The notes below the pieces were generated by a model, which ran no database searches, was not told the origin of the DNA, and saw only the letters and a program-made list of their open reading frames with translations. A stretch of DNA of 64,000 nucleotides from assembly GCA_965206645.1 (NCBI GenBank), contig CBDBKE010000004.1, positions 384,001 to 448,000 of the forward strand, read 5' to 3'. A program made the position numbers and the translations under genes. The stretch is from Terriglobia bacterium (GTDB lineage: Bacteria; Acidobacteriota; Terriglobia; JAJPHL01; JAPKYU01). Shown here in pieces: positions 5,666-59,854 of this stretch (positions are counted from its first letter, which is position 1; each line of letters begins with the position of its first letter).

Positions 5666-6668
5666 ACTGTTTCCGAAGATGCCCAAAAGCTCGCTCATCA
5701 CCCGAGAGGAGATATTCGAGCTGGTCCGGGAAGACCTGGAGCAGGTCGAACGCGCCTTCGGCACCGATACGGTCTGTTCGGTGGAAGCGGTGACCGCCAT
5801 CGGGCACTACCTCCAGTTGAGCGGAGGCAAACGCCTGCGCCCTGCGCTGGTGCTACTGGCCGCGCGGGTGTGTGGCCACTCCGGCGCGGCGGCCGTTCAG
5901 TTGGGCGCGGTGGTGGAGATTATCCACACGGCGACGTTGGTGCACGACGACGTCATTGACGGAGCCGACCGTCGCCGCGGGCGCCCCTCGACCAACTTCC
6001 GCTGGGGTAACCATATCAGCGTGCTGGCCGGCGACTGGCTCTACATGCAGTCGTTCCAGATTGCGTTGCGGGAGCGCAACTTTCGCATCCTGGATCTGCT
6101 GATCTACATCACCCAAATGATGGTGGAGGGTGAGCTGCTGCAGCTAGAAAAGCTGGGCCAGATCAATGTCACCGAGCAGGACTATCTGGACTTGATCCGG
6201 CGCAAGACAGCATGCCTGTTTGATATCTCCATGCGGCTAGGTGCAGTGCTCAGCGCGAAGGAGAACGCCGAAGAGGAGCTGGGCGAGTATGGCCGCAACC
6301 TGGGGACAGCGTTCCAGTTGGTGGACGATCTGCTGGACTTCACCGCCAGCGAAAGCGCGCTCGGCAAGCCGGTGGGCAGCGATCTGAAGGAAGGCAAGGT
6401 GACCTTGCCGCTAATCTATGCGTTGCGCCGATGCACTCCCGAAGAGCGCCGCCGCGTCGAGACGGTGTTGGAGGAACGCGCCTTCCGCAGCGTGACGCAG
6501 CAGGAAATCCTAGACATCCTGGCGCGCTACCATACGCCGGCCGAAGTGATGGCGAAGGCCGCCGAGTACGCCCGACGGGCCGTGTCCCACTTGAAAGGCT
6601 TCGCCGACTCGCCCTACCTGCGGGCCCTGGAAGCCCTGCCGGAGTACATCCTGCACCGCGAGCACTGA
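5652..6668 (+). CDS. ispB: polyprenyl (octaprenyl-type) diphosphate synthase; true start may be 5679
   Basis: GGKRLRP, LVHDDVID..RRG and FQLVDDLLD (two DDxxD motifs). Confidence 0.9.
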   Translation: MLAPKLFPKMPKSSLITREEIFELVREDLEQVERAFGTDTVCSVEAVTAIGHYLQLSGGKRLRPALVLLAARVCGHSGAAAVQLGAVVEIIHTATLVHDDVIDGADRRRGRPSTNFRWGNHISVLAGDWLYMQSFQIALRERNFRILDLLIYITQMMVEGELLQLEKLGQINVTEQDYLDLIRRKTACLFDISMRLGAVLSAKENAEEELGEYGRNLGTAFQLVDDLLDFTASESALGKPVGSDLKEGKVTLPLIYALRRCTPEERRRVETVLEERAFRSVTQQEILDILARYHTPAEVMAKAAEYARRAVSHLKGFADSPYLRALEALPEYILHREH

Positions 6669-6672
6669 GAGC

Positions 6673-7503
6673 GTGCAGGGGCCCGCAGCCACGATGACCT
6701 CAACCAGCCCCGGCCGTCGAGTGGCTCTGTTGACCGCGGTGCTGGGAGCCATGCTCTTGCTGCCCGGCCTCCACGCGCACCACGAGGCCATCTTCGGACC
6801 GCAATCCTCCGTGTTGATCTCAAGGAAGCGGTTTGTCTCCACCCAGTACGACCTGGTCAATGAGGGGCGAACTCCCGACACTAAGGGCCGCAGCCACATC
6901 GGCGTCCTAAGTGTGGGCACCTCCGTTGGCAAACGATGGTCTGTGATGGCAACGGTTCCCTTTGAAGCTGAACGGGCGTTTGACGAACAGGCTACCGGCA
7001 TCCAGGATGCGGTATTGGCACTACGCTATTCGGCCGATTTGAGGAACCACGAGTCGTTGATGGGAGTTTTGACGGTCGAACCTCCAACGGGCACGTTAGA
7101 ACATCGCGCGGTCGGACTCGGGGGTGGGCTCATTTATGGGCACGAATGGGGGCACTGGTCCCTGCTCACATATGGCCTGGGTCGCACGGAGTCTTCGCTC
7201 GAAGAAGGGGAGAAGCGGGGAAACCGACTGTTCCTCGGCGGAGGCTTGGGGTACGAGACACATGACTTGCCGTTTAGCCCCCAACTCGGAATCTCATGGG
7301 AGCGGACGGGGCGGCGGCGCGAAGAGGGGGAGCTTATCCCCGAGTCGAACTCCTCGGCCCTGATGATTCACCCGACGCTAACCAAGGCCGTTAGCGAGTC
7401 GCTACAGACTTTCCTCGTCGTGTCGTTGCCCCTCGTACAACGAAGCGGCACAGAGGGGTGGCAGAGGTTTCGGATAGCGGCCGGACTGATTTGGGCGTTT
7501 TGA
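6673..7503 (+). CDS. putative outer-membrane beta-barrel protein
   Basis: Signal peptide ending LHA, mature N-terminus HHEAIFGPQ, amphipathic beta-strand pattern, C-terminal Phe. Confidence 0.6.
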   Translation: MQGPAATMTSTSPGRRVALLTAVLGAMLLLPGLHAHHEAIFGPQSSVLISRKRFVSTQYDLVNEGRTPDTKGRSHIGVLSVGTSVGKRWSVMATVPFEAERAFDEQATGIQDAVLALRYSADLRNHESLMGVLTVEPPTGTLEHRAVGLGGGLIYGHEWGHWSLLTYGLGRTESSLEEGEKRGNRLFLGGGLGYETHDLPFSPQLGISWERTGRRREEGELIPESNSSALMIHPTLTKAVSESLQTFLVVSLPLVQRSGTEGWQRFRIAAGLIWAF

Positions 7504-7618
7504 GACCGGCTGCGACCGCCTTTCCCAATACCGTAGCGCTCCCGTTTCACCGGTAACATCAAGCCAGCAGCTTGCATGCTACAATCGCGGCGCAAGAAAA
7601 TTTTACGGTGCATGCAAA

Positions 7619-8194
7619 GTGACGGCCAAAGGCGTAGAGGTCGAAATCAAGCTGGCGGTGGTGAATGCCAGCGCGATGCGGCGAGCCCTGCGCCGTCTGG
7701 ACTTTGTGCTGGCGGGACGCGAGTGGGAACGCGATATCGTTCTTGACACTCGCAGCCTGGCGCTACGGCGCAGCCGGTGCCTGCTGCGGCTGCGTCACCA
7801 CGGACGGCGCTGGAAGCTGACCTTTAAGGGACCTGCGGCCGCTGACCGGCGCTACAAGACCCGACCGGAAACCGAGATCGAAATCCAGGAGGGGCTGCGC
7901 CTGCTGCAGATTCTGGAGCAGTTGGGCTACCTCCCGGTCTTTCGCTACGAGAAACGGCGCAGCACCTACTGTCCAAGGGGCCGTAGAAGGCGCCAGGACG
8001 GTATCGCCAGCCTGGATGTGACCCCCATCGGCACGTTCCTGGAGCTGGAAGGGCCCGGGCGTTGGATTGAGCGGACCGCTCGGTCGCTCGGCTTCTCCCG
8101 GCGAGACTACATTACCCAGTCCTATGCTTCCCTGTATCGGCAATATTGCCGCGCGCACGGCCGAAAGCCGTCGCACATGGTCTTCCGCTCATGA
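7619..8194 (+). CDS. CYTH-domain (class IV adenylate cyclase-like) protein
   Basis: EVEIKL (ExExK), LRLR, LTFKGP, YEKRR and FLELEG motifs. Confidence 0.88.
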   Translation: MTAKGVEVEIKLAVVNASAMRRALRRLDFVLAGREWERDIVLDTRSLALRRSRCLLRLRHHGRRWKLTFKGPAAADRRYKTRPETEIEIQEGLRLLQILEQLGYLPVFRYEKRRSTYCPRGRRRRQDGIASLDVTPIGTFLELEGPGRWIERTARSLGFSRRDYITQSYASLYRQYCRAHGRKPSHMVFRS

Positions 8195-9428
8195 TTTACC
8201 TGACGGAGCTGCTGCAGCTTCCTGTTGTGGGTCGTGCTGGCCGACAGCTCGGGCGCCTCGGTGAGCTGGCTCTGGTGCCAGCCGAAGATCCACGGCGCGT
8301 CGCCCATTTCGTCCTGCGCAGTCGCAAGGGCCGCCTGGCCATCCCGTACAACAACGTGCAGGAGAGCGGCCCGGAATGCTTGCGTCTCAACGTCGAGGTA
8401 GAAGAACTAGGGGAATACTCTGCCCGCGACGACCAGTTACTGGTAACCAAAGACCTGCTGGACCAATAAATCATTGATATTCACGGGCGCAAGGTAGTGC
8501 GGGTCAACGACGTGGGCTTTTTGCAGCAGCGCTCCAACGGGGCCTGCGAGGTGCGGCTGGCCGAGGTGGACGTGGGCGTCAGCGGAGCCTTCCGTCGGCT
8601 GTTCCGGGGGGTGTTGCCGCCACGCCTGATTCGCAAGCTGGAGCGGCCCCTGGCTCACCGGTCATCCCCTGGGAGTTCGTGGACCTGATCGAGGCCGACC
8701 CGCAGCGGCGCCTGAAGCTGAAAATTTCCCACGAGAGGCTGGCCCGCCTGCACCCGGCTGATTTGGCCGACATCGTCGAGGAACTGGCGCCCGCCGAGCG
8801 CGAAGCTCTGTTTGAAACCCTGGACGAAACCAAAGCCGCCGAAGCGCTCTCGGAAGTACTGCCCAGGGTACAGAAGTCGATCATCGAAGCGCTGGAGGTG
8901 GAAAAGGCCGCTGACATCGTCGAAGAAATGCCGCCGGATGAGGCTGCCGATTTGCTGGCCGAACTTCCTGAGGAAACCTCGGAAAAAATCATTGAGGACA
9001 TGCAGCCGGCTGAGGCCGAAGAACTCGAGGAGCTTCTAGAGTTCGAGGAGGACACAGCCGGCGGCCTGATGACAACCGACTTCATCGCCCTGGGGGAGGC
9101 CGGTACGGCCGAGACGGCCATTGTGGCGCTGCGCGAAACACGCGACGTGGCGCGTCTCACGAACACGCTGTTCCTGTTGGACGGGCAAGGCCGGCTGACA
9201 GGGGCGCTGCCGTTGGCAGAACTGTTCCTGGTGTCTCCCTCCTCTCCTCTGGCGGGGCTGAGGTCCGAGCCCTTGTTATTCGTGGTGACTGACGCCACGG
9301 AGCGCGACGTCATCGAGCTGTTTGACAAATACAACGTGCTGACCCTCCCGGTGGTGGACAAGGAATCCCGGCTCGTGGGAATCATCACTGCCGACGACGT
9401 TATCAGCCTGCTCAAGTCGAAACTGTGA
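8191..9428 (+). pseudogene. PRC-barrel/MgtE N-terminal/CBS-domain protein, interrupted
   Basis: In-frame TAA at 8467-8469 in DLLDQ*IIDIHGRKVVRVND; frameshift near 8658 before VIPWEFVDLIE; then LHPADLADI (MgtE-N) and TAGGLMTT...GIITADDV (CBS pair). Confidence 0.85.
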
Positions 9429-50804: not shown

Positions 50805-51229
50805 TCAGTCCAACCGGGCTCCTTGGCGCCATTGCCAGGGCTTGATGAATTGTCCTTGCCAGATACCACGATTGTCTTTCCGGGCTTCATCTTCAGCGGC
50901 AACGTACCGTTTCGAGAAGCGCCGATAAGCAAGTGCTTGGCCTTGACGGACAAGCCATCCGTTCAAGTCCATGTCGTCCAGGTAGCAGACGGAAATCAAA
51001 CGGCCGTACTGGTCCCTCGTGTCACCCTTGCACGTGATGGACGCCTTGCCGATCTTTACACGCAGTGCCGAAGTCGCCTCCTTTCCGCAATCGTAGCGCT
51101 TCCCGTCACGCTTGCACGTCTGTCTTGATTCCGGCGCGTCAATCCCCTCCAGGCGCAACTTTTCACCGGCAATCTCCACGGTGTCGGCGTCGATGATGCG
51201 AGCCACGCCGGTCAGAGTTTCGGCACTGC
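50805..51229 (-). pseudogene. thermonuclease (SNase) whose 5' end is cut off by IS3
   Basis: IIDADT, LRLEGIDAPE..Q.C, DQYGRL, LVRQGQA and RGIWQG; no start codon before the IS. Confidence 0.85.
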
Positions 51230-52509
51230 TGACCTGCCTGGCGATTTCCGGACCAGCTGAAGCCTGAGAGAATGGCGCCCTCGGAGAAACGAGGGAGCCA
51301 TGAAGAAGACCCGGTTTACCGAAGAGCAGATGGTGACGATCCTCCGCGAGGCCGATCAGCGGCCCGTTCCGGAGGTGGCCAAAAAGAACGGCGTCAGCGC
51401 CCAGACGCTCTACGCCTGGCGGAAACACTTCGGCACGTTGGAGCCCGCCGATGTGAAGCGGCTGCGGCAGCTCGAGCAGGAGAACGGCCGGCTGAAAAAG
51501 ATGGTGGCCGATCGAGATCTGGAGATCGACGTGCTCAAGGAGATCACCCGAAAAAAATGGTAGGCGCACGCGTGCGCCGGCCGCAGGTCGCGTATGCACG
51601 TGCACGCGGTCTGTCGGGTCGCCGCGCGTGCGCCTTGCTCTCCGTCGCACGGTCCACGCTGGGCTACCAGTCGCGGCTGGTCGACCGGGATGCCCCGGCG
51701 CTGGCCGCGATGCGTCGTCTGGCGGCGCAGTATCCGCGGTACGGCTATCGCCGGATTCGGATTTTCCTAAAACGCGAAGGGCACACGATGAGCACGGACC
51801 GGACCCATCGCCTCTGGCGCCAGGCGGGGTTGCAGGTGCCTCGGCGGCGGCCGCGGCGCCGGGTCGCCCTGAGCCGGCCCCGCCCGGTGCCCGCCACTGC
51901 GGTCAATCACGTCTGGGCGTACGACTTCGTGTTCGACACCTGCGCGAATGGGCAGACGCTCAAGTGCCTCACCGTCGTCGACGAATGGACCCGCGAGTCA
52001 CTCGCGATCGACGTGGCCGGCGGCATTCGGTCCGGGCGCGTTATCGAGGTGCTCACGCAGCTCGTGAGCGTCCACGGAGCCCCACGTTACCTCCGGTCCG
52101 ACAACGGCCCCGAGTTTGTCGCGGGTGCGATTCTCCGGTGGCTGCTCCAGGCGCAGATCGAAACCGCGCTCATCGAGCCGGGGAAGCCGTGGCAGAATGC
52201 GACCGACGAATCGTTCAACGGGAAGTTCCGCGACGAGTATCTGAGCCTGCAGTGGTTTCGGAACCGCGTGGACGCGAAGGTGGGGATCGAGCAATGGCGA
52301 CGGCACTACAACGACGTGCGACCGCACTCGAGCCTTGGCTATCTGACGCCAGCCGAGTTCAAAGCGCAGCTCCGTGCTGGCTCGGATGACGGTGGGCGCT
52401 CGCCGGCGATGCCGGCTCACGCTGACCAAGAAGAACACGAGAGCGACTTAACCATGCCGACTGGCGCTGTTCTCCAGTAATCGGTGGTCCGAAGAAAGCC
52501 GGCAGGTCA
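51230..52509 (+). mobile_element. IS3-family element, 1280 bp
   Basis: IRs TGACCTGCC...GGACCA / TGGTCC...GGCAGGTCA; TG...CA ends. Confidence 0.93.
51300..52480 (+). CDS. IS3 transposase OrfAB (orfA 51300-51563; programmed -1 frameshift at the A7 run ~51551)
   Basis: MKKTRFTEEQ HTH; YGYRRI, WAYDF, SDNGPEF, PGKPWQN and ESFNGKFRDE. Confidence 0.93.
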
Positions 52510-52796
52510 CAACAATGCTTCAACTCGAACGCCCGCAGGCCATACAAAGACAGGAGTAACCTGATGCTTACCGTTGCCGCGTTCCCGCGGGTGTCGCCGC
52601 GAACCCGTTGCTACTGCCTGTAATCTAGAAAGCAACTCAAACACCTTCTGAGCAGCGGTTGGCGAAGATCCGGTCGCTGAAGGCCGTCTTCACAGGACAA
52701 ATCCGCGGGGTTTTCAAAATTGCGCTACATCAAGCCGGCGCACTTCGGAGAGGCTTGGTTTTCTAATTCCCTTCCAAGGTCGACGAACGGATCACA

Positions 52797-55700
52797 TCAG
52801 TCGCTGAGCAAATACTGAGTCACCAACGCACGTGTGATGGCTTCACCGCGTCCGGAAAGCTTTCGAACGTTTTCTTCCGACATTGCGGAGAAGTCGGTCG
52901 GGTAATGGATCACTTCCTCACGATCCACCCAGTTGGCGGATTTCAGAGGTACACGACGATCGATCTGTCCGAGACCTGCGTAGACAAACCCGTCAAGTCG
53001 CCCGAATTTCGCGTGATCGTGAAGCCGCTGTTTGGTAGCGTCCTGGACTTTGCGCATGACTGCGGACATGACCTGGGTCATTCGTTTTGTCCAACTGATG
53101 GGCACCCCCTTGCCGGTGAATTGCCCGGCGCCGGCGTCGCTCGCGATGATGATGTCGGGGTTGTAACTGATTGCGCTTACCTCGAGATCTCGGCCAGGCT
53201 CCATCACACTCACGCCTAGATTCTCGAACACGCCCCCGTCGGTGACTATCACGCGGCATGTATCGGTTTGCCCGTTTCTCTCCAAAGACTTCGTCCAGTC
53301 GAACGGCGGAAGGAATGGCGGGTAGGCGGCCGTGGCCGTCACCGCGTCGGCGACCCGGAGTTCGCTCGCCGGTGCCCAGCCGTATCTCCAAGTGCCGAAG
53401 CGTTCGTTGCTCATACGGAATGCAGTGCCGGTTCGGAGCTCACAAGCGTTGAAGACGATCGCCTTGCCTTGGCGCGTGGGCGCATCGCAGTTCTGAGTGC
53501 CGACTACGCCAGCGATCGCGTCGGCAAGGACGTGTGTCCGCGAATAGCGATGTCGGAGTGGCCACGACCAGCGCGAGACGAGGTTGCTGGCACTGCGAAT
53601 CCCGGGAAAGAATGTGGAGACCAGATTTGCGATCCAGGTCATCAAGTCGGTGGCCAACGTTGGCAGAGCGACGACAGCAAAGTTCCACAGGAGCGAACCG
53701 AGGCGTGCGGGATGCAGGAGTTTTTTCAGCGCAGGTCTTACCAGACCGCGATGAAGGAATTTGACAGCGCTGTCATCGATTTCGGAGAACGCAGCTTCGG
53801 TATAGCCGACTAGGGCAGTCATGACCGAGCCGCCCGACACGCCGGATATCACATCGACCTCATCGAGTAACTTGAGGTCTTCGAGCGCACGCAATGTGCC
53901 AAGATGAAATGCGACGGCACGCGATCCGCCGCCGGATAGCGACAGCCCAATCTTCTTGTCGAGTGCCGCCACCGGAGGCGGAGTCGTAACACCGCCTCGT
54001 GCCCCGATTGTGATCTCCATTCCGTTTCGGTGCGCGGCCAATTCTCTCTTTTCGAACGCGTAAGCCCCAATTTGCGGCTTCTGTTCGGCGGCATGCCCGA
54101 CGATCACCATCAGCTGGAGGGCACCGTCGTCGGGTCCAGCCGCAAAAATGGTGGCGATGCCTTCGTAGTCCGTGGCGCTAGGCGTTGCTGGGCTGACCGG
54201 ATGGGAATGCCAGGTTCCGACGTAACGCACGATCCGGTGGGTGCGTTCTTCGTAGTCCTTGCACAGAGCTCTTGTGCCGTGGGTTCCGCAGCGGAAGAGC
54301 TCGGCGGAAAACGTGCTGTCCTGCGGCGGCCCACTGACGTTGGTCACCCATACGATTCCGAGGGTCTCGTCGAACTGTCCGAACAGTAGACCACCCGTTT
54401 CCTGTTCCGCGGATCGTTCTCGGGCCCCCGCGCGTATCCAGCCGATCATATCCCGCCAGACATTCGCCGACATCCGGAAGTCGAGCCCGTCCGCGACCCA
54501 CCGAATGTCCGGGCGAAACCTAAAACGCTGTTCACGAATATCGGGCGACTGGCAGATGAGAAAACCGCTGGCGATGTCACCAGCGTCGTCAAGCGCCTCG
54601 GCCAATGCATTGAGCGCCCGCGCCGAAAGGACGGCCACGTCGGCGTGCGATGCGACGAAGGTGGGATCGGAACATCCGGGTTCTGGCTGCCGGAGACCTT
54701 CGATAGCGTCAGACGTCCAGAAGGCCTTCGCCCACTCGCCGAGCCAGTCACGGTTCACGGCCGCAAGGCCTAGGCGGCGGAACATGTCGAGGGGTCCAGC
54801 TCGGTATCCGGACGGAGCGACGACTGCGACAGCGTGCTGCGCGGTGGCGCTGATCATCACCGAAGCGATTGGAATCTGCCGCTCGTGTTCCTTGAGTACC
54901 GCCTCAAGCTTGCTTCTAACACGGAGTGACGCGGTCGCATCGACCACGACGTCGATATCCGCGTCCCAATCGGTCCTGGTCAGGGTCTGGAAGACAATGT
55001 CCTCGATTCTCGCAAAAACTTTGACGTTTGGTGCGATCGATTGCACCCGACTGGCGAGTGCCGTGGCCTTTGGCTCGTTAGTGTCCGCAGCGGAAAAGTT
55101 CTGGCGAACCAGCACGCCCGGGGTTACGTGGTTTCGGTCGTAAAGCGTGAGTTCTGCGATTCCCGCTCGAGCGAGGTGCTCTGCAATGAGTGAGCCTATT
55201 GCTCCGCAGCCCCAAAGCGCCACCCGTTTTCCGCGAAACCAGTCCATCGCCGTGCCTTCGTCTCGCCGGGTTACGATCTCGGGACGGTTCTCAATCACAG
55301 AGCACCACCTTACACGTGCCTCGTTCCTCCATCTGATCAAGGTTTCGAAAACAGAGTTGATCAACGCTTGGAATTCTTCCGGGGTGTCTTCTCTCCTGTA
55401 GTGGTTGCTGAATTGGCAGGCGATCGAGGCTGCGCGCAGCTTGGCGACATCGTGCCCTTCGATTTCCCAAAATGTGAGGTGTTGGTGTCGTTGCGTGACG
55501 TCGCCGGCGACGCCTCGTGCAGGCGCACCGATCGCGACGTACAACGGGGCGCCCTTGGTGACACGCTCCGAGGCCAGCATCAGGTGAGCAAGCAGCCGAT
55601 AGCCCAGGGCACCTTTGCTTTCCAGGTGGTGGAGCAGGTGATGGACCATTCGGGGGTATTCGAACGGAAGCTCGAAGTTCAGCAAGACCGTGGGCGCGAA

Positions 55701-56297
55701 CAACACATCGTTCTGCAAATGTTGTACGGGCACCCACGCATTGACCTCAAGAAGGCCGGGCTTCGGCTGGTCGAGCACTGCGGCTCCGAACCATGGCCAA
55801 GTATCGCGGCCCGGCGTGTCGGCGTTCACACAGATCGATGTCAAGGCCACCGTATAGGCAACGGGCGGGTGCAAAGGACCTTCGGGATGGTCGAGTTCGT
55901 TGCGGGCTCCACGTCGAAACCACTCGTCGAGCTGCGCCAGGAATCCGAACATGCCTTGAGACGGGATCCACTGGGTGTCGAGGGATTGATACAGGCATAG
56001 GTGGCTTCCCCACTGAACGTGACCAAAGCCGTGGAATCGGGTGTGGGCAGTGTCGGCAGATGGCGGACTGAATGGGAAATCTGCCGGCACCCATAGCGTG
56101 ATGCCTTCGCGGTCGTGGAGCTGCAGACCGTCATCGACATGCTCGTGACGGGAGCAATCGAGCGTGATGTCGACGCCTAAAGAAGCACCCTGGTCGACGC
56201 TCTCTTCAACACCGATGATCTGAACCGGGGATCGATCGGTACCTGCTATGCGTCGCAGCTGGTCTAGCGCGGTCCGTTGGCCTTCACTAAGCGCCAC
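52797..56297 (-). CDS. E2-like + E1 (ThiF) + JAB + patatin phospholipase fusion, ~1166 aa
   Basis: E2: FPFSPP...HVQWGSHLCLY. E1: GCGAIGS, GVLVRQ, PEPGCSDPTF. JAB: ETGG...VGTWHSHP...PSATD. Patatin: LSGGGSRA, GVSGG, DGGVFEN. The GTG start at 56297 overlaps the MBL stop. Confidence 0.92.
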   Translation of the reverse strand: MALSEGQRTALDQLRRIAGTDRSPVQIIGVEESVDQGASLGVDITLDCSRHEHVDDGLQLHDREGITLWVPADFPFSPPSADTAHTRFHGFGHVQWGSHLCLYQSLDTQWIPSQGMFGFLAQLDEWFRRGARNELDHPEGPLHPPVAYTVALTSICVNADTPGRDTWPWFGAAVLDQPKPGLLEVNAWVPVQHLQNDVLFAPTVLLNFELPFEYPRMVHHLLHHLESKGALGYRLLAHLMLASERVTKGAPLYVAIGAPARGVAGDVTQRHQHLTFWEIEGHDVAKLRAASIACQFSNHYRREDTPEEFQALINSVFETLIRWRNEARVRWCSVIENRPEIVTRRDEGTAMDWFRGKRVALWGCGAIGSLIAEHLARAGIAELTLYDRNHVTPGVLVRQNFSAADTNEPKATALASRVQSIAPNVKVFARIEDIVFQTLTRTDWDADIDVVVDATASLRVRSKLEAVLKEHERQIPIASVMISATAQHAVAVVAPSGYRAGPLDMFRRLGLAAVNRDWLGEWAKAFWTSDAIEGLRQPEPGCSDPTFVASHADVAVLSARALNALAEALDDAGDIASGFLICQSPDIREQRFRFRPDIRWVADGLDFRMSANVWRDMIGWIRAGARERSAEQETGGLLFGQFDETLGIVWVTNVSGPPQDSTFSAELFRCGTHGTRALCKDYEERTHRIVRYVGTWHSHPVSPATPSATDYEGIATIFAAGPDDGALQLMVIVGHAAEQKPQIGAYAFEKRELAAHRNGMEITIGARGGVTTPPPVAALDKKIGLSLSGGGSRAVAFHLGTLRALEDLKLLDEVDVISGVSGGSVMTALVGYTEAAFSEIDDSAVKFLHRGLVRPALKKLLHPARLGSLLWNFAVVALPTLATDLMTWIANLVSTFFPGIRSASNLVSRWSWPLRHRYSRTHVLADAIAGVVGTQNCDAPTRQGKAIVFNACELRTGTAFRMSNERFGTWRYGWAPASELRVADAVTATAAYPPFLPPFDWTKSLERNGQTDTCRVIVTDGGVFENLGVSVMEPGRDLEVSAISYNPDIIIASDAGAGQFTGKGVPISWTKRMTQVMSAVMRKVQDATKQRLHDHAKFGRLDGFVYAGLGQIDRRVPLKSANWVDREEVIHYPTDFSAMSEENVRKLSGRGEAITRALVTQYLLSD

Positions 56298-57435
56298 GAC
56301 CGAATCCAACTGCCGTTGCAGGCGCGACGGCGGCGCCACTGGCAGCCTTCAGCGCGTCGCTCATCGACTTGCTGGATTCGCTCTTGCCGACATAGGCGAA
56401 CCCTGTCTCGCTGACCTCGAAGATGATTGGCTCGGGGTTCCTCTTGTCCGGATGTTCCTGGGTGCACATGAACTCGTTAGGGACGATGCGCTGATACTGT
56501 CGCTTCGCCTTGGCGTGTGGTGGATTATCACCTGGTTCGTTGCTCGCCGGCACAGGGTCCGAGCTCGAGACAACATATCCGGGATTGAGGGCAGCGTTGC
56601 CAATGTCACGCACGATGTCAGATTTCAGCGTCTCCTCGTCGCCGTCCTCGTCTTTCCAGTACATCACTGACTTCGAGCAATGATGGGGTGCGAGCAGGAC
56701 GTTCCAGGCCCGCTTTGCGGCTTTACTGCGGTCGAAGATTCGTCGGATGATCGGATAGCTAAGGTCTCCCATGAGCAGCGCTCGGCCGACGCCGGATTCG
56801 TTATAGAGGGAGATCTGGAAGGCAAGGCTACAATCGTTCCGGTCGCCGAAGCTGTCGTCCTTGAACGGGGCGTGCACAAACGCCTCAAATGCATTGGGGA
56901 CGTCCTCACCGTCCAAAGTTGTGATGGTTTGGCCCGGAATGGACAGGAATTCTTTGGGAAAGCCTTTGAAATCGGGCTCCTTGAGCAGGTCGTCGTAGCC
57001 GATGATGCGAATTCGACGGCCTCGTCCGGGATCGCCGCCAGCGTCTATGCCCACCTTAACACGTCGCATCGCCTCGTCGTGGAAGGCTTGCGCGTCTTCG
57101 CAGAGGTCGTTGTTCTCGCGGAATTCGCGGAACGTGCGCGGCGACATCCAGAGCTCGGAGATGATCACGCGGTCGTTCAGCTCCTCAAAGCCCTGGCAGT
57201 GGTCCAGATCGGGATGCGTGAGCGCGAATACCGACAGATACGGCTTGCCGCGAAGTTTCGGCAGAACCTTGATCAACTCGTCGATTACCGGCCAAGCTGG
57301 GTCGTCGTCCTCTTCGGACTTGGCCATGTGCCGCATGTCGACCTGTAGGTACACCGTCTCGGACACGCGAACGGTCGTGCTGTCGCCAGTGCCGACCGGC
57401 CAGAAGATGAAGCCTCGGGCAGGAGAGTAGATCAT
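56287..57435 (-). CDS. ComEC/Rec2-type metallo-beta-lactamase-fold hydrolase (putative nuclease)
   Basis: FWPVGTGDS, LTHPDLDHCQG, NDCSL, LMGDL and APHHCS; low-complexity tail ending VGFGRGA; AAGGGG RBS. Confidence 0.9.
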   Translation of the reverse strand: MIYSPARGFIFWPVGTGDSTTVRVSETVYLQVDMRHMAKSEEDDDPAWPVIDELIKVLPKLRGKPYLSVFALTHPDLDHCQGFEELNDRVIISELWMSPRTFREFRENNDLCEDAQAFHDEAMRRVKVGIDAGGDPGRGRRIRIIGYDDLLKEPDFKGFPKEFLSIPGQTITTLDGEDVPNAFEAFVHAPFKDDSFGDRNDCSLAFQISLYNESGVGRALLMGDLSYPIIRRIFDRSKAAKRAWNVLLAPHHCSKSVMYWKDEDGDEETLKSDIVRDIGNAALNPGYVVSSSDPVPASNEPGDNPPHAKAKRQYQRIVPNEFMCTQEHPDKRNPEPIIFEVSETGFAYVGKSESSKSMSDALKAASGAAVAPATAVGFGRGA

Positions 57436-57626
57436 ATTGAGCAACCCCTTATGCTATACTAGCACATGTTGGGGTCGGTTGGAAGTGCGAGGGTTTCAGT
57501 ACATGCGAGGTGAGCTCTGGGGAAATAACCGGCTCACCGTCAAAAAGCTCAGCCTTGAGCGGCCGCCGTTCTGACCTGCATGTCTCGACGTGACGAGTGC
57601 TGCGACGGGGCGAATAGGCACTTGCG

Positions 57627-58070
57627 ATGCAGTTTCCGGATCTTTGAGACAGCCTCTTCACCTTGCTTCTAAGGGCCTTTACCAACCATGGTGTGGGATA
57701 CTTGCTTATCGGAAGCATGGCCAAGTCCCATTACTCCCGTCGGCGCGAGCCGCTAGGCGAAATGGACCTGCTGATTAATCCCAAGCCCGAGAATGCAAGA
57801 AGGGTAGAGTCCGCTTTCCGGGAGCGAAATTATCATCAGCTGTTGCAGCTCGAACTGGAATAACTTGCCCTCCCAAATCAACAACACGCAATTTTCGACT
57901 GCGGCGTCCGCGTCGGCGTGTTCTTTCTCTTAAGCCGAATTTTAGTTTGTGTAAAGCCTTCTCCCGCTTAGAGACAGAGGTCGTTGACAGCATAAGTGTG
58001 CGGGTCGCATCTGAATGTGATTTGGAAACGCTCGACTCACTGAGAGAACAGAGCGCACGAGCACGTTGAA
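57627..58070 (+). pseudogene. degenerate minimal nucleotidyltransferase-like gene
   Basis: VGYLLIGSMA..HY...EMDLLINPKPENARR, with in-frame stops. Confidence 0.5.
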
Positions 58071-58154
58071 CCGGAACGAGCTTCCCTAGCAGTCCAAGGT
58101 TATAGTCAGATTGTTCATAGGATCAAACGGATCGCTCGTGACCGTGTCGGAATA

Positions 58155-58867
58155 GTGGTATCGGAAGATTTTGGTGTTGCTGCATCAGGAAGGCTGGCCG
58201 GTGGGCAAGTCTCTGGTGAGGCGATTGTATCGGGAAGAAGGACTGACGCTGCGACGGATGGTGCCAATGAAACGCCGGGTGGCAGTGGAACGAACAGAGA
58301 GAATTAAACCCAGCGGACTGAACCAGGTGTGGAGTCTGGACTTTCTGGCGGAGCAGTTGGCCGATGGCAGGTGATTCCGAGCATTGACGGTGGTGGATGT
58401 ATTCGCGCGGGAAAGCCTAGCGGTCGAGCCGAGACAGAGTCTGATAGGGGGAGACGTGGTCCGAGTGCTGCAGCGGATTCAGAAAGACCGTGGGGCGCCG
58501 AAGGCGCTGTTCTGCGACAATGGATTGGAGTTCACGAGCCAGGTGATGGACTTCTGGGCGTACCGGAACGGAGTGAAGATCGACTTTTCACGCCCGGGAA
58601 AGCCGACCGACAACGGGCACATTGAGTCGTTCAACGGAACGTTCCGGGACGAGTGTCTGAACACACATTGGTTCCCGACGCTCGGGGATGCCAGGGAGAT
58701 CATCGCAGCATGGCGAAGGGAGTACAATGAGAGTCGTCCTCACAGGGCCCTGAGGGAGAAGAGGCCGTACGAATTTGCTCATCAAATCGCGGCTCGCCGC
58801 GATTTGATGGGTTCGAAAAAACCGCAATACTCACCTTGAAGTTGGTACGAAATCTCGGGACCCCTCA
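58155..58867 (+). mobile_element. IS3-family remnant (truncated orfB with an internal TGA at 58372)
   Basis: YRKI...RLYREEGL, WSLDF, DGR*FRALTVVD, DNGLEF and ESFNGTFRDE; right end ...GGGACCCCTCA. Confidence 0.85.
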
Positions 58868-59054: not shown

Positions 59055-59173
59055 GGTGTTGTCAAGTTGAGGCTGACGGGTGTTTCTGATGCCCAGCATG
59101 GCGCGTTCAAGACGGGCTGGAGCCCAGTATCCTGGGGGTCGATCGACTAGCTTTTCGTCAACTTGACAATGCC
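59055..59173. mobile_element. 119-bp MITE-like element with IS6-like IRs
   Basis: GGTGTTGTCAAGTTGA ... TCAACTTGACAATGCC (14/16 inverted match); no transposase inside. Confidence 0.7.
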
Positions 59174-59854
59174 GGCGACGGCGTTCTCGTTTAGAGGGAC
59201 GGCGTGCTGCATGAGGCTCTCGAAATATCGCATCGAGAACTGGACCTGGGTCGGCCAGAGGACACGCTGGCGGGCGTCCTGCGGGGTCCAAAGCTCCAAG
59301 CCCTCAATGACTGTTCCCTTGATGGTGACGGACCGGCCGTCTTTGCTGGCACCGAGGCGGAAATCCGCGGCGGCCAGCCGGTTGAGCTGTTCTTTGACGG
59401 TCTTGATGGTGCGCCCGCCCACGTCGAGGCCGAGGGTGCGCTTCACGAAAGCCGTGAGGCTGTCTTCGAGCTCAATGTTGGGCGATTGCGTGCGCAGGGC
59501 CTCGGCGTTCAGGTGGTAGAGGACAAGCCGGGGTTTCGGCCCGAAGGGCAGGCCCACGTCCACGAAATCCTCGGTTGTCGGATCGAGGAGACGACCGGCC
59601 TGAAGCTCCAGCCGGACCATGCCGTTCTTGCGCTGCCATAGCCGCACGGCTTCGCCGGGGTCGCGGTAAGGCATGCAGGTCTGGCACAGGACGGAATGCT
59701 GGTAGAGGATCGATTGGGCTTCCTCGTCCTGGAGAGGCATCGAAATGAGCCGTTCATGAATCCGGGAAAGCGGTTTGTGCTCGGGCTTGATGATGGCGGG
59801 AAAAAGGTCGCCGATGCGCTGCATCCCTTTTGCGGTTTTGTCGTCTATCGGCAC
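59147..59854 (-). pseudogene. repA: plasmid replication initiator RepA (IncW/RepA_C-like), C-terminally truncated by the MITE
   Basis: HSVLCQTCMPYRDP, GLPFGPKPRL and HAVPL; the frame runs into the MITE IR right after HAVPLNENAVA. Confidence 0.8.

What the first reader, a model, noticed from the sequence alone, without database searches (positions are those of the whole stretch)
52797..57435. Cyclase-less ubiquitin-ligase-like operon: MBL hydrolase plus a single E2-E1-JAB-patatin polyprotein
Seen: two overlapping, uninterrupted genes in an otherwise decaying island. The large gene carries catalytic motifs of four enzymes: E2 Cys (55995-55997), E1 GCGAIG and PEPGC Cys (54672-54674), JAB ETGG/HSHP..S..D (~54400-54170), and patatin GGGSR/GVSGG/DGG (~53935, ~53835, ~53237). 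Known: E2-E1 and JAB match the CBASS type II Cap2/Cap3 architecture; MBL + E2-E1-JAB operons are described as the 6A-MBL anti-phage type; patatin (CapV) is a CBASS membrane-destroying effector. Inference: a variant with a phospholipase effector fused to the conjugation/deconjugation machine. It would have two potential toxic outputs (nuclease and lipase) and no CD-NTase or free ubiquitin-like protein. I do not know of this four-domain fusion being characterised.
Basis: partly seen in the sequence, partly recalled or inferred. Interest (0 to 1): 0.93.

Follow-up and report, generated by a model that had tools for sequence, protein, structure and literature searches.

The report
6A-MBL phage-defence operon, patatin-fused form
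These two intact genes are a copy of the already named bacterial anti-virus system "6A-MBL", in a common but apparently undescribed form where a membrane-cutting lipase, usually the next gene, is fused onto the ubiquitin-type ligase.

Summary
There are two intact, overlapping minus-strand genes. One is an MBL-fold protein (56287-57435/57444). The other is a 1180-aa (probably 1166-aa) E2-E1-JAB-patatin protein (52797-56339).

Both genes pass NCBIfam's curated cut-offs for the named anti-phage "6A-MBL" system. Having no cyclase and no free Ubl is normal for that family.

The MBL carries a disordered C-terminal tail that looks like the conjugation handle. In 83 of 86 family members the tail ends in [G/R]FG plus 0-4 residues.

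The fusion is not an artefact and is not rare:
- 120 of the 120 best database clusters contain ThiF+JAB+patatin.
- Of 80 metagenomic 6A-type loci, 32 have patatin fused, 25 have it as a separate gene immediately downstream, and 4 have it elsewhere in the locus. Four carry a metallophosphoesterase in its place, 9 have nothing detected, and 6 cannot be judged.

Patatin is therefore a usual third part of the system, repeatedly fused and split.

I found no paper describing this branch, but the key paper (van den Berg 2024) was not held. This scan has reported the same thing in at least 12 other genomes.

Verdict: new variant of a known kind, moderate interest.

The parts
56287..57444 (-). MBL-fold protein of the 6A-MBL system. 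It is 385 aa from TTG 57444, but the likely start is ATG 57435 (382 aa), which follows an AAGGGG ribosome-binding site at 57445-57450.
   Evidence: NF058524 6A-MBL_enzyme scores 293.6 bits against a cut-off of 220. The AF2 model has pLDDT 87.6. The best PDB fold match is the ComEC MBL domain 9ic4, E 1.3e-12.
57199..57219 (-). Metal-binding motif THPDLDH (residues 76-82). It is a variant H-x-D-x-D-H form of the MBL motif 2.
   Evidence: H77, D79, D81 and H82 are invariant in 35 aligned MBL proteins. H191, D227, H254, H255 and H310 are also invariant.
56290..56376 (-). Disordered C-terminal tail of the MBL (residues 357-385). It ends in VGFG (56299-56310) followed by RGA. This is the proposed ubiquitin-like conjugation handle.
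   Evidence: pLDDT is below 50 for residues 357-385. 83 of 86 MBL proteins end in [G/R]FG plus 0-4 variable residues, and 4 end exactly at GFG.
52797..56339 (-). E2-E1-JAB-patatin protein. It is 1180 aa from GTG 56339, or 1166 aa from GTG 56297.
   Evidence: NF058523 6A-MBL_cap2_3 scores 360.2 bits against a cut-off of 320 over residues 72-746. PADLOC E1-E2 PDLC00857 gives 4.8e-77.
55815..56204 (-). E2-like domain (residues 46-175), with catalytic Cys115 at 55995-55997.
   Evidence: PF14457 gives 4.7e-19. C115 is invariant in 96 and in 57 aligned sequences. The predicted MBL docking surface is residues 27-140.
54834..55235 (-). E1 adenylation domain (ThiF, residues 369-502) with the GCGAIG nucleotide loop. 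The E1 Cys556 lies further on, at 54672-54674.
   Evidence: PF00899 gives 4.8e-21. G377, G379, A380, G382 and P552-S557 are invariant.
54096..54422 (-). JAB/JAMM metallopeptidase domain (residues 640-748), with E647, H711, H713, S721 and D724.
   Evidence: PF14464 gives 9.5e-10. PADLOC JAB PDLC00890 gives 8.6e-21. The residues are invariant.
52800..53987 (-). Patatin-like phospholipase domain plus its family-specific C-terminal extension (residues 785-1180). It has the GGGSR oxyanion loop, Ser835 and Asp1034. A variable hydrophobic helical insert lies at about residues 875-930.
   Evidence: PF01734 gives 3.7e-19. The AF2 model has pLDDT 91.0. PDB fold matches are patatin-17, PlpD, CapV and CapE. 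S51 and D250 of the domain are invariant in 41 fused and separate homologues.

Best explanation
This is an intact member of the 6A-MBL anti-phage family, a cyclase-less relative of type II CBASS. It is in the layout where the family's usual third component, a patatin phospholipase, is fused to the C-terminus of the E2-E1-JAB protein.

Shown here:
- Family membership of both genes.
- All catalytic residues are intact.
- The MBL has a ComEC-like fold and a disordered, conserved ...VGFG(+0-4) tail.
- Patatin is co-inherited with the ligase and has been repeatedly fused and split.
- The same position can hold a metallophosphoesterase instead.

Inferred by analogy with Cap2/Cap3 acting on CD-NTases:
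1. The JAB domain trims the few residues after the tail glycine and later reverses conjugation.
2. The E1 domain adenylates the exposed Gly and takes it onto Cys556.
3. The Gly passes to E2 Cys115.
4. The MBL enzyme is then ligated through its C-terminus to a target.
5. This switches on or localises the toxic outputs during infection. Those outputs are the ComEC-like phosphodiesterase/nuclease and the patatin phospholipase held in cis. The infected cell is disabled before phage release.

How the patatin is gated is unknown. My guess is gating in cis by the conjugation state of the ligase, not by a diffusible nucleotide.
For: Membership and conservation:
- NCBIfam equivalogs are above cut-off for both genes. 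PADLOC E1-E2 and JAB models hit.
- All listed catalytic residues are invariant in 96 full-length homologues.
- 11 of 12 genome loci, from four phyla or classes, have the MBL gene directly upstream. These two genes are the only ones shared in the flanks.

MBL tail and fold:
- 83 of 86 MBL tails end in [G/R]FG plus 0-4 residues.
- The tail is disordered in the AF2 model.
- The nearest fold is the ComEC MBL domain.

Predicted MBL-ligase complex, MBL against residues 1-610:
- ipSAE was 0.81 in 3 of 3 runs; the best of 3 controls was 0.00.
- That mark was reached by 58 of 80 solved complexes and 2 of 110 mismatched pairs.
- Runs agree in at least 92% of contacts, and partner pLDDT is at least 83.
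- My own alignments were used, so the calibration counts hold only roughly.
- A pass may reflect likeness to solved Cap2-CD-NTase complexes.

Patatin:
- The AF2 model has pLDDT 91, an intact Ser/Asp dyad, and resembles patatin, PlpD, CapV and CapE.
- 61 of the 74 assessable metagenome loci have a patatin in the locus, and 4 more have a Metallophos domain in the same position.
- Core and patatin tree distances correlate at r=0.84, against a maximum of 0.61 in 200 label shuffles.

Literature: Ye et al. [quoted passage not shown]
Against: - No experiment bears on this locus.
- The paper that tested 6A-MBL (van den Berg 2024) was not held. Its anti-phage activity is therefore taken from two secondary mentions.
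- The predicted complex docks the MBL on the E2 domain. It does not confidently place the last 9 tail residues in the E1 site.
- 9 of the 74 assessable loci and one genome (G236) have no patatin or substitute, so patatin is not essential to the family.
- The MBL's substrate is unknown. Its second-best fold match is a phosphorylcholine esterase, not a nuclease.
- Nothing shows how, or whether, conjugation controls the patatin.
- No promoter-like site was found (0 sites).
- The metagenome sample is the 80 best tblastn matches to one unfused query sequence, so the proportions are not unbiased.
Confidence: 0.6

Rival explanations
1. CBASS-like logic without a cyclase. The MBL is the sensor or signal-making enzyme, taking the place of the CD-NTase, and is primed by conjugation. 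The patatin is the only killing effector. The MBL is not itself toxic.
For: - The MBL sits exactly where the CD-NTase sits in type II CBASS and carries the tail (PMC11601596 passages).
- Patatin, or a swapped phosphoesterase, occupies the effector position in 65 of the 74 assessable loci.
- MBL-fold enzymes include small-molecule phosphodiesterases, and the fold hits include a cAMP-bound MBL protein and the Pce esterase.
Against: - 9 of the 74 assessable loci and genome G236 have only MBL plus ligase. In those, the MBL must then be the output.
- Fusing the effector to the ligase argues against a need for a diffusible signal.
- The nearest fold is a DNA-degrading ComEC domain.
Confidence: 0.2
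2. The patatin domain is not a killing effector. It is a membrane or lipid-handling module of the conjugation reaction. For example, it could place the ligase at the membrane, or supply or edit a lipid acceptor so that the MBL is lipidated in the way Atg8 is.
For: - A variable hydrophobic helical insert is present in the patatin domain of many homologues. In about half of the 41 sequences the maximum Kyte-Doolittle 19-residue window falls at domain positions about 84-135.
- Patatin and the ligase are tightly co-inherited and repeatedly fused.
- That Cap2-type E2-E1 enzymes are related to Atg7 is stated in PMC11601596 (passage).
Against: - The Ser-Asp dyad and oxyanion loop are invariant, as expected for a working hydrolase.
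- The position can hold an unrelated phosphoesterase, which fits effector swapping better than a dedicated lipid role.
- There is no evidence of any lipid conjugate.
Confidence: 0.08
3. It is not a phage-defence system here. It is an addiction or competition module of the mobile island, or an inactive passenger.
For: - It lies between IS3-type elements next to a plasmid RepA-like gene.
- Relatives lie on conjugative and mobilisable plasmids.
- There is no match in 50,697 phage records.
- No promoter-like site was found.
Against: - Both genes are intact, with every catalytic residue kept, while neighbouring genes are broken.
- Family models are curated as anti-phage.
- Neighbours in other loci are defence-type genes: SIR2, TIR and DEDDh-WYL.
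- Mobile-element carriage is typical of defence systems.
Confidence: 0.07
4. The fusion is an assembly or annotation artefact, with a missed stop or frameshift between JAB and patatin.
For: None was found. One metagenome locus (L060) does show the fused gene split by a frameshift.
Against: - The frame is open across the junction in the window.
- It is open in 11 independent genome assemblies.
- It is open in 32 of 80 metagenome loci.
- It is open in 37 of the 37 representatives of at least 1000 aa.
Confidence: 0.01

Closest known systems
6A-MBL anti-phage system (operon type 6a of Iyer, Burroughs & Aravind 2006, PMC1779556; tested by van den Berg et al. 2024, Cell Host Microbe, not held; NCBIfam NF058523 and NF058524)
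   Same: It has an MBL-fold gene followed by an overlapping gene for an E2-E1-JAB triple-module protein. There is no cyclase and no separate Ubl. Both proteins score above the curated family cut-offs.
   Different: The ligase carries a 396-residue patatin domain that the 665-position family model does not cover. Iyer 2006 describes 'usually two genes' and never uses the word patatin. NCBIfam and PADLOC have no model for this patatin.
Type II CBASS (CD-NTase + Cap2 E2-E1 + Cap3 JAB + effector such as the patatin CapV)
   Same: It has homologous E2-E1 and JAB modules. The partner enzyme has a flexible C-terminal Gly/Ala tail. A patatin-fold phospholipase sits at the effector position, with fold similarity to CapV and CapE at TM 0.50-0.66.
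   Different: There is no CD-NTase in the operon or the genome. The conjugated enzyme is an MBL hydrolase. E2-E1, JAB and patatin are one polypeptide. The patatin matches CBASS phospholipase models only weakly, and nothing indicates a cyclic-nucleotide-binding site.
Three-gene 6A-MBL + patatin operons in isolates and metagenomes, for example the Phaeobacter sp. G2 plasmid CP104102.1 and genome G150
   Same: They have the same three components in the same order, with the same patatin subfamily (35-44% identity over the whole domain). Patatin starts at a 4-nt overlap with the ligase stop.
   Different: In those operons patatin is a separate gene. In a Streptomyces plasmid the JAB is separate too. 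Some carry HTH plus ImmA/IrrE regulators upstream. No regulator was seen upstream in the window.
ComEC C-terminal MBL domain (PDB 9ic4)
   Same: It is the best sequence-profile and fold match of the MBL protein: E 1.6e-7, and E 1.3e-12 with TM 0.75 on the target.
   Different: Identity is only 16%. The 6A MBL is soluble and stand-alone, and it has an H-x-D-x-D-H motif and the conjugation tail. Its nuclease activity is inferred, not shown.

Membership tests
6A-MBL anti-phage system | A triple-module E2-like + E1-like + JAB protein in one polypeptide | tested here: met
   NF058523 scores 360.2 bits against a cut-off of 320. Pfam finds Prok-E2_A, ThiF and Prok-JAB in that order.
6A-MBL anti-phage system | An adjacent gene for the specialised MBL-fold protein | tested here: met
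   NF058524 scores 293.6 bits against a cut-off of 220. The gene lies directly upstream and overlaps.
6A-MBL anti-phage system | Catalytic Cys of E2 and E1, the JAMM motif, and the MBL metal ligands are intact | tested here: met
   C115, C556, E647/H711/H713/S721/D724 are invariant. MBL residues H77/D79/D81/H82/H191/D227/H254/H255 are invariant.
6A-MBL anti-phage system | Protects against phage | not testable with these tools
   This is known only from secondary mentions of van den Berg 2024. That paper was not held.
Type II CBASS | A CD-NTase (SMODS) signalling enzyme in the operon | tested here: not met
   There is no PF18144 match in the genome, which is 97.9% complete. The only upstream partner is the MBL.
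Type II CBASS | Cap2-like E2-E1 and Cap3-like JAB | tested here: met
   PADLOC E1-E2 and JAB models hit. The NCBIfam Cap3 model gives only 24.9 bits against a cut-off of 200, so this is homology, not equivalog membership.
CapV-type CBASS phospholipase effector | Matches the CBASS patatin effector models | tested here: not met
   PADLOC phospholipase effector PDLC00755 gives E 4.4e-5 and 20.8 bits, with no stretch passing on its own. NF053870 gives 26.8 bits against a cut-off of 400.
CapV-type CBASS phospholipase effector | Activated by a cyclic nucleotide | not testable with these tools
   No cyclase is present. No ligand site was examined.
Patatin-like phospholipase superfamily | Patatin fold with a Gly-rich oxyanion loop, a GxSxG serine and a DG[AG] aspartate | tested here: met
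   PF01734 scores 70.1 bits against a cut-off of 27.7. GGGSR, GVSGG and DGG are invariant. The AF2 model has pLDDT 91 and matches patatin-17, PlpD, CapV and CapE.

The most novel reading that the evidence does not exclude
The ligase may attach the MBL enzyme's C-terminal glycine to a membrane aminophospholipid instead of a protein lysine, as Atg8 is lipidated by the related Atg7/Atg3 enzymes. On this reading the co-inherited, often fused patatin domain, with its hydrophobic insert, is the lipid-handling part of that reaction. It would place the ligase on the membrane and make or remove the lipid anchor. That would be a bacterial protein-lipidation immune switch working without any nucleotide signal.
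Probability: 0.06. Interest if true: 0.88.

Novelty: new variant of a known kind. Interest (0 to 1): 0.45.

Why it matters
6A-MBL is one of the few bacterial ubiquitin-like conjugation systems with reported anti-phage activity, and its mechanism is unknown.

In most sampled loci a dedicated patatin phospholipase travels with it, either fused or as the next gene. Sometimes a phosphoesterase takes its place. This suggests the published two-gene description is incomplete. The system would then have a CBASS-like layout of a conjugated enzyme plus a swappable effector, but with no second messenger.

The single-chain form found here is the most compact version. It would be a convenient construct for asking how ubiquitin-type conjugation can gate a lipase directly.

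For this genome alone, it is an ordinary, horizontally acquired defence gene pair on a mobile island.

Tried and rejected
Literature. I ran nine full-text searches.
- '6A-MBL' found 2 papers, both passing mentions.
- (terms 'Bacterial homologs of innate', anti-phage, Pseudomonas aeruginosa, ubiquitin) returned 88 papers, of which 10 were listed.
- ('prokaryotic antecedents of the', metallo-beta-lactamase, JAB, E2-like) returned 8. These two searches supplied the papers I then read.
- Combinations of patatin with Prok-E2, JAB, metallo-beta-lactamase, Cap2, Cap3, MBL, E1-like or E2-like returned nothing that links patatin to this operon type.
- Iyer 2006 (PMC1779556; passages and Table 1 text) has 0 occurrences of patatin, phospholipase or lipase.
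- The Chambers preprint PMC10557695 has 0 occurrences of MBL, metallo or patatin.
- PMC12035536 had nothing relevant.
- van den Berg 2024 (pmid 39094584) is not held, and supplements are closed. I therefore cannot say whether that paper or its tables already list patatin-bearing 6A-MBL systems.

Tree of cores. A FastTree of 130 representative cores showed fused and unfused forms interleaved, with 27 changes and at least 18 forced. I first read this as repeated gain and loss. I dropped that reading after finding separate patatin genes immediately downstream of unfused cores. That tree has long branches and composition warnings, so it should not be used for more than this.

Promoter scan. It found 0 sigma-70-like sites in 52400-58400, against a shuffle mean of 1.4. 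This is uninformative.

Hydropathy. The patatin insert in the window's protein reaches only 1.47 on a 19-residue window. That is suggestive of membrane contact but is not a transmembrane call.

Phage collection. No match.

Unpublished genomes. The genome search tally of 4 of 401 genomes above cut-off includes the three genomes flagged unpublished (G152, G024, G049), but only as members of the 401. No locus or claim rests on them.


Full report
WHAT IS THERE

The minus strand holds two uninterrupted, overlapping ORFs. One runs 56287..57444 (385 aa). The other runs 52797..56339 (1180 aa).

The first most likely starts at ATG 57435, behind an AAGGGG ribosome-binding site. The second may start at GTG 56297. 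That would give 1166 aa, the commonest length among its homologues.

Pfam places four domains in the large protein, all above gathering thresholds: Prok-E2_A (46-175), ThiF (369-502), Prok-JAB (640-748) and Patatin (799-1044). Pfam finds nothing in the small protein.

NCBIfam identifies both genes with curated equivalog models (the second confirmed on the genome):
- NF058523, 'anti-phage 6A-MBL system cap2_3 protein': 360.2 bits against a cut-off of 320. It covers residues 72-746, so it stops before the patatin domain.
- NF058524, 'anti-phage 6A-MBL system MBL-fold protein': 293.6 bits against a cut-off of 220.

PADLOC's CBASS-type E1-E2 and JAB models also match.

The name '6a' comes from row 6a of Table 1 in Iyer, Burroughs and Aravind 2006. 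[quoted passage not shown]

I aligned the 96 homologues of at least 1150 aa, taken from the 120 clusters listed.
- E2 Cys115
- the E1 GCGAIG loop and Cys556 (PEPGC)
- JAB E647, H711, H713, S721 and D724
- patatin GGGSR, Ser835 (GVSGG) and Asp1034 (DGG)

In 35 aligned MBL proteins the metal ligands are invariant. They are H77-x-D79-x-D81-H82, H191, D227, H254/H255 and H310.

IS THE FUSION REAL, AND IS IT RARE?

It is real, and it is common.
- All 120 best clusters from the 5.8-billion-protein search carry ThiF+JAB+Patatin. 114 of them also carry the E2 domain; the other six are shorter.
- A scan of species-representative genomes found 12 loci at 60-81% identity. They are in MAGs labelled Vicinamibacterales, Alphaproteobacteria, Woeseiaceae, Thiotrichales, Pseudohongiella and a Prochlorococcaceae cyanobacterium.
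- 11 of those 12 have the MBL gene directly upstream. The twelfth is a fragmented copy.
- These two genes are the only ones conserved between the flanks.
- Such high identity across phyla points to horizontal transfer.

An exhaustive HMMER search with residues 1-770 gave 367 representatives (50% clusters) below 1e-30. Of the best 150, 42 carry the patatin domain, including 37 of the 37 that are at least 1000 aa long.

PATATIN IS A USUAL THIRD COMPONENT

On a tree of 130 cores, fused and unfused forms are interleaved. The explanation is fusion and fission, not gain and loss.

In 401 genomes sampled from the window's phylum, 4 pass the family cut-off. Besides the window's genome:
- G150 has MBL, then an 811-aa ligase, then a 393-aa patatin overlapping the ligase stop by 4 nt.
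- G059 has a broken ligase followed by a patatin ORF.
- G236 has no patatin.

A metagenome scan seeded with 60 unfused cores returned 80 loci. They divide as follows:
- 32 with fused patatin
- 25 with a separate patatin gene immediately downstream
- 4 with patatin elsewhere in the locus
- 4 with a 398-residue C-terminal calcineurin-like phosphoesterase instead (PF00149)
- 9 with nothing detected
- 6 not assessable

After clustering the cores at 80% identity there are 54 clusters, 21 purely fused and 16 purely separate. This sample is the best 80 tblastn matches to one query, so the proportions are indicative only.

Fused and separate patatins belong to one subfamily. They share 35-44% identity with the window's domain over its full length, apart from two more distant ones at 27% and 22%. 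Distances on the core tree and the patatin tree correlate at r=0.84, against a maximum of 0.61 in 200 label shuffles. The fused/separate state changes 6 and 4 times on those trees of 41 loci.

Named plasmids show every layout:
- Phaeobacter sp. G2: MBL, ligase, then patatin, with HTH and ImmA/IrrE genes upstream.
- A Streptomyces plasmid: E2-E1, JAB and patatin as three separate genes.
- Rhodococcus plasmids: near-full-length matches.

The phage collection gave no match.

THE MBL PROTEIN

Its AlphaFold2 model is confident (pLDDT 87.6, pTM 0.87) except for residues 357-385, which fall below 50.

The best profile and fold matches are both the MBL domain of ComEC (9ic4), with E 1.3e-12 and TM 0.75 on the target. 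Next come the pneumococcal phosphorylcholine esterase Pce, then RNase J and RNase Z. A phosphodiesterase, probably a nuclease, is therefore the best guess, but it is not shown.

Across 86 MBL proteins of the family, 83 end in [G/R]FG followed by 0-4 variable residues. Four end exactly at GFG. The window's protein ends ...AVGFG-RGA. A conserved glycine at the end of a disordered tail, with a short disposable extension, is what a substrate for E1 adenylation after JAB trimming should look like. Ye et al. state that 'Type II CBASS ... [quoted passage not shown]

I ran a controlled complex prediction of the MBL with residues 1-610 of the ligase:
- ipSAE was 0.81 in three of three runs. The best of three controls was 0.00.
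- That mark was reached by 58 of 80 solved complexes and 2 of 110 mismatched pairs.
- Runs agree in at least 92% of contacts, and partner pLDDT is at least 83.
- I used my own alignments, so the calibration holds only roughly.
- The interface joins the E2 domain (residues 27-140) to MBL residues 275-324 and 356-376.
- The last nine residues are not confidently placed.
- The pass may owe something to solved Cap2-CD-NTase complexes, so it shows likeness rather than proof.

THE PATATIN DOMAIN

The model of residues 785-1180 has pLDDT 91.0. It matches plant patatin-17, PlpD and the CBASS effectors CapV and CapE about equally well, at TM 0.45-0.69.

Sequence models of CBASS phospholipases barely register, and no NCBIfam or PADLOC model covers this subfamily. 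It is therefore a patatin-fold hydrolase with an intact dyad, but it is not a CapV orthologue.

Between the nucleophile elbow and the rest of the fold lies a long helical insert. Its sequence is poorly conserved but often hydrophobic. This may be a membrane-contact element.

MECHANISM

Shown:
- family membership
- intact active sites
- the conserved tail
- co-inheritance and modular replacement of the C-terminal enzyme

Inferred from the Cap2/Cap3 paradigm:
1. JAB exposes Gly382.
2. E1 adenylates it and forms a thioester on Cys556.
3. It transfers to E2 Cys115.
4. The MBL is ligated to a target, and JAB reverses the ligation.

Conjugation is proposed to turn on or localise the hydrolases during infection, producing an abortive outcome. 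Minimal two-gene systems exist, so the MBL can probably act as an output by itself, with patatin as a second, swappable effector held in cis. The main rival is that the MBL only senses or signals and patatin alone kills. A bolder possibility is Atg8-like lipidation with patatin as the lipid-handling part. I rate that at about 6%.

CONTEXT

The operon sits on a mobile, partly broken island:
- an IS3-family element (orfA/orfB) at 51300-52480
- broken IS3-type transposase pieces at 58171-58839
- a plasmid RepA_C ORF at 59147-59854
- an SNase-domain ORF at 50805-51650

The genome has no SMODS cyclase. No regulator gene was seen upstream of the MBL.

NOVELTY

The two-gene core is known, named and modelled. 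I could not find the patatin association, fused or separate, in any searchable paper. The one experimental paper was not available, and supplements are closed.

This scan has already reported the same system with patatin in at least 12 other genomes, including the same single-chain fusion (e1-3071259). My results agree with those notes and were obtained independently before I read them.

I class this as a new variant of a known kind, with moderate interest.

Noticed in passing
L051:2761-6237, also L052, L053 and L100 (metagenome loci): These are 6A-type E2-E1-JAB proteins of 1158 aa. Their C-terminal 398 residues are a calcineurin-like phosphoesterase (PF00149, E 2.1e-7) instead of patatin. 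This looks like an effector swap at the same position.
   Followed up: partly
L093:6916-7788 and 7793-8899: A second MBL-fold gene (Lactamase_B) lies between the ligase and the patatin gene. This matches the four-gene layout that earlier notes of this scan reported in other genomes.
   Followed up: partly
window 56297-56339: The large gene probably starts at GTG 56297 (1166 aa, as in most homologues), not at GTG 56339. The overlap with the MBL gene would then be 11 nt.
   Followed up: partly
window 51300-52480: This looks like an intact IS3-family element. orfA (HTH_Tnp_1, 51300-51563) overlaps an orfB frame that carries HTH_21, rve and rve_3, the usual frameshifted pair.
   Followed up: partly
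window 58171-58839: There are broken IS3-type transposase pieces in two frames (rve and rve_3 in 58384-58839), about 730 nt upstream of the MBL start.
   Followed up: no
window 50805-51650 (-) and 59147-59854 (-): A 281-aa ORF carries a C-terminal staphylococcal-nuclease domain (PF00565). A 235-aa ORF carries a plasmid RepA_C domain (PF04796). Both flank the operon.
   Followed up: no
L011:115-1197 and 6052-7728 (alphaproteobacterial MAG): This is a fragmented copy of the fused gene. Two pieces lie about 4.9 kb apart, and no MBL gene was found next to it.
   Followed up: no
L127 (Phaeobacter sp. G2 plasmid CP104102.1) 205-1092: An HTH gene and an ImmA/IrrE metallopeptidase gene lie divergently upstream of the MBL-ligase-patatin operon, like the CapH/CapP switch of CBASS. 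The window has no such pair.
   Followed up: no
L044 and L045 (genomes G150, G059): A divergent MBL subclade (28-29% identical to the window's MBL) ends in ...PAPRAG(NE) instead of ...VGFG. It has an inserted segment after the HxDxDH motif.
   Followed up: no
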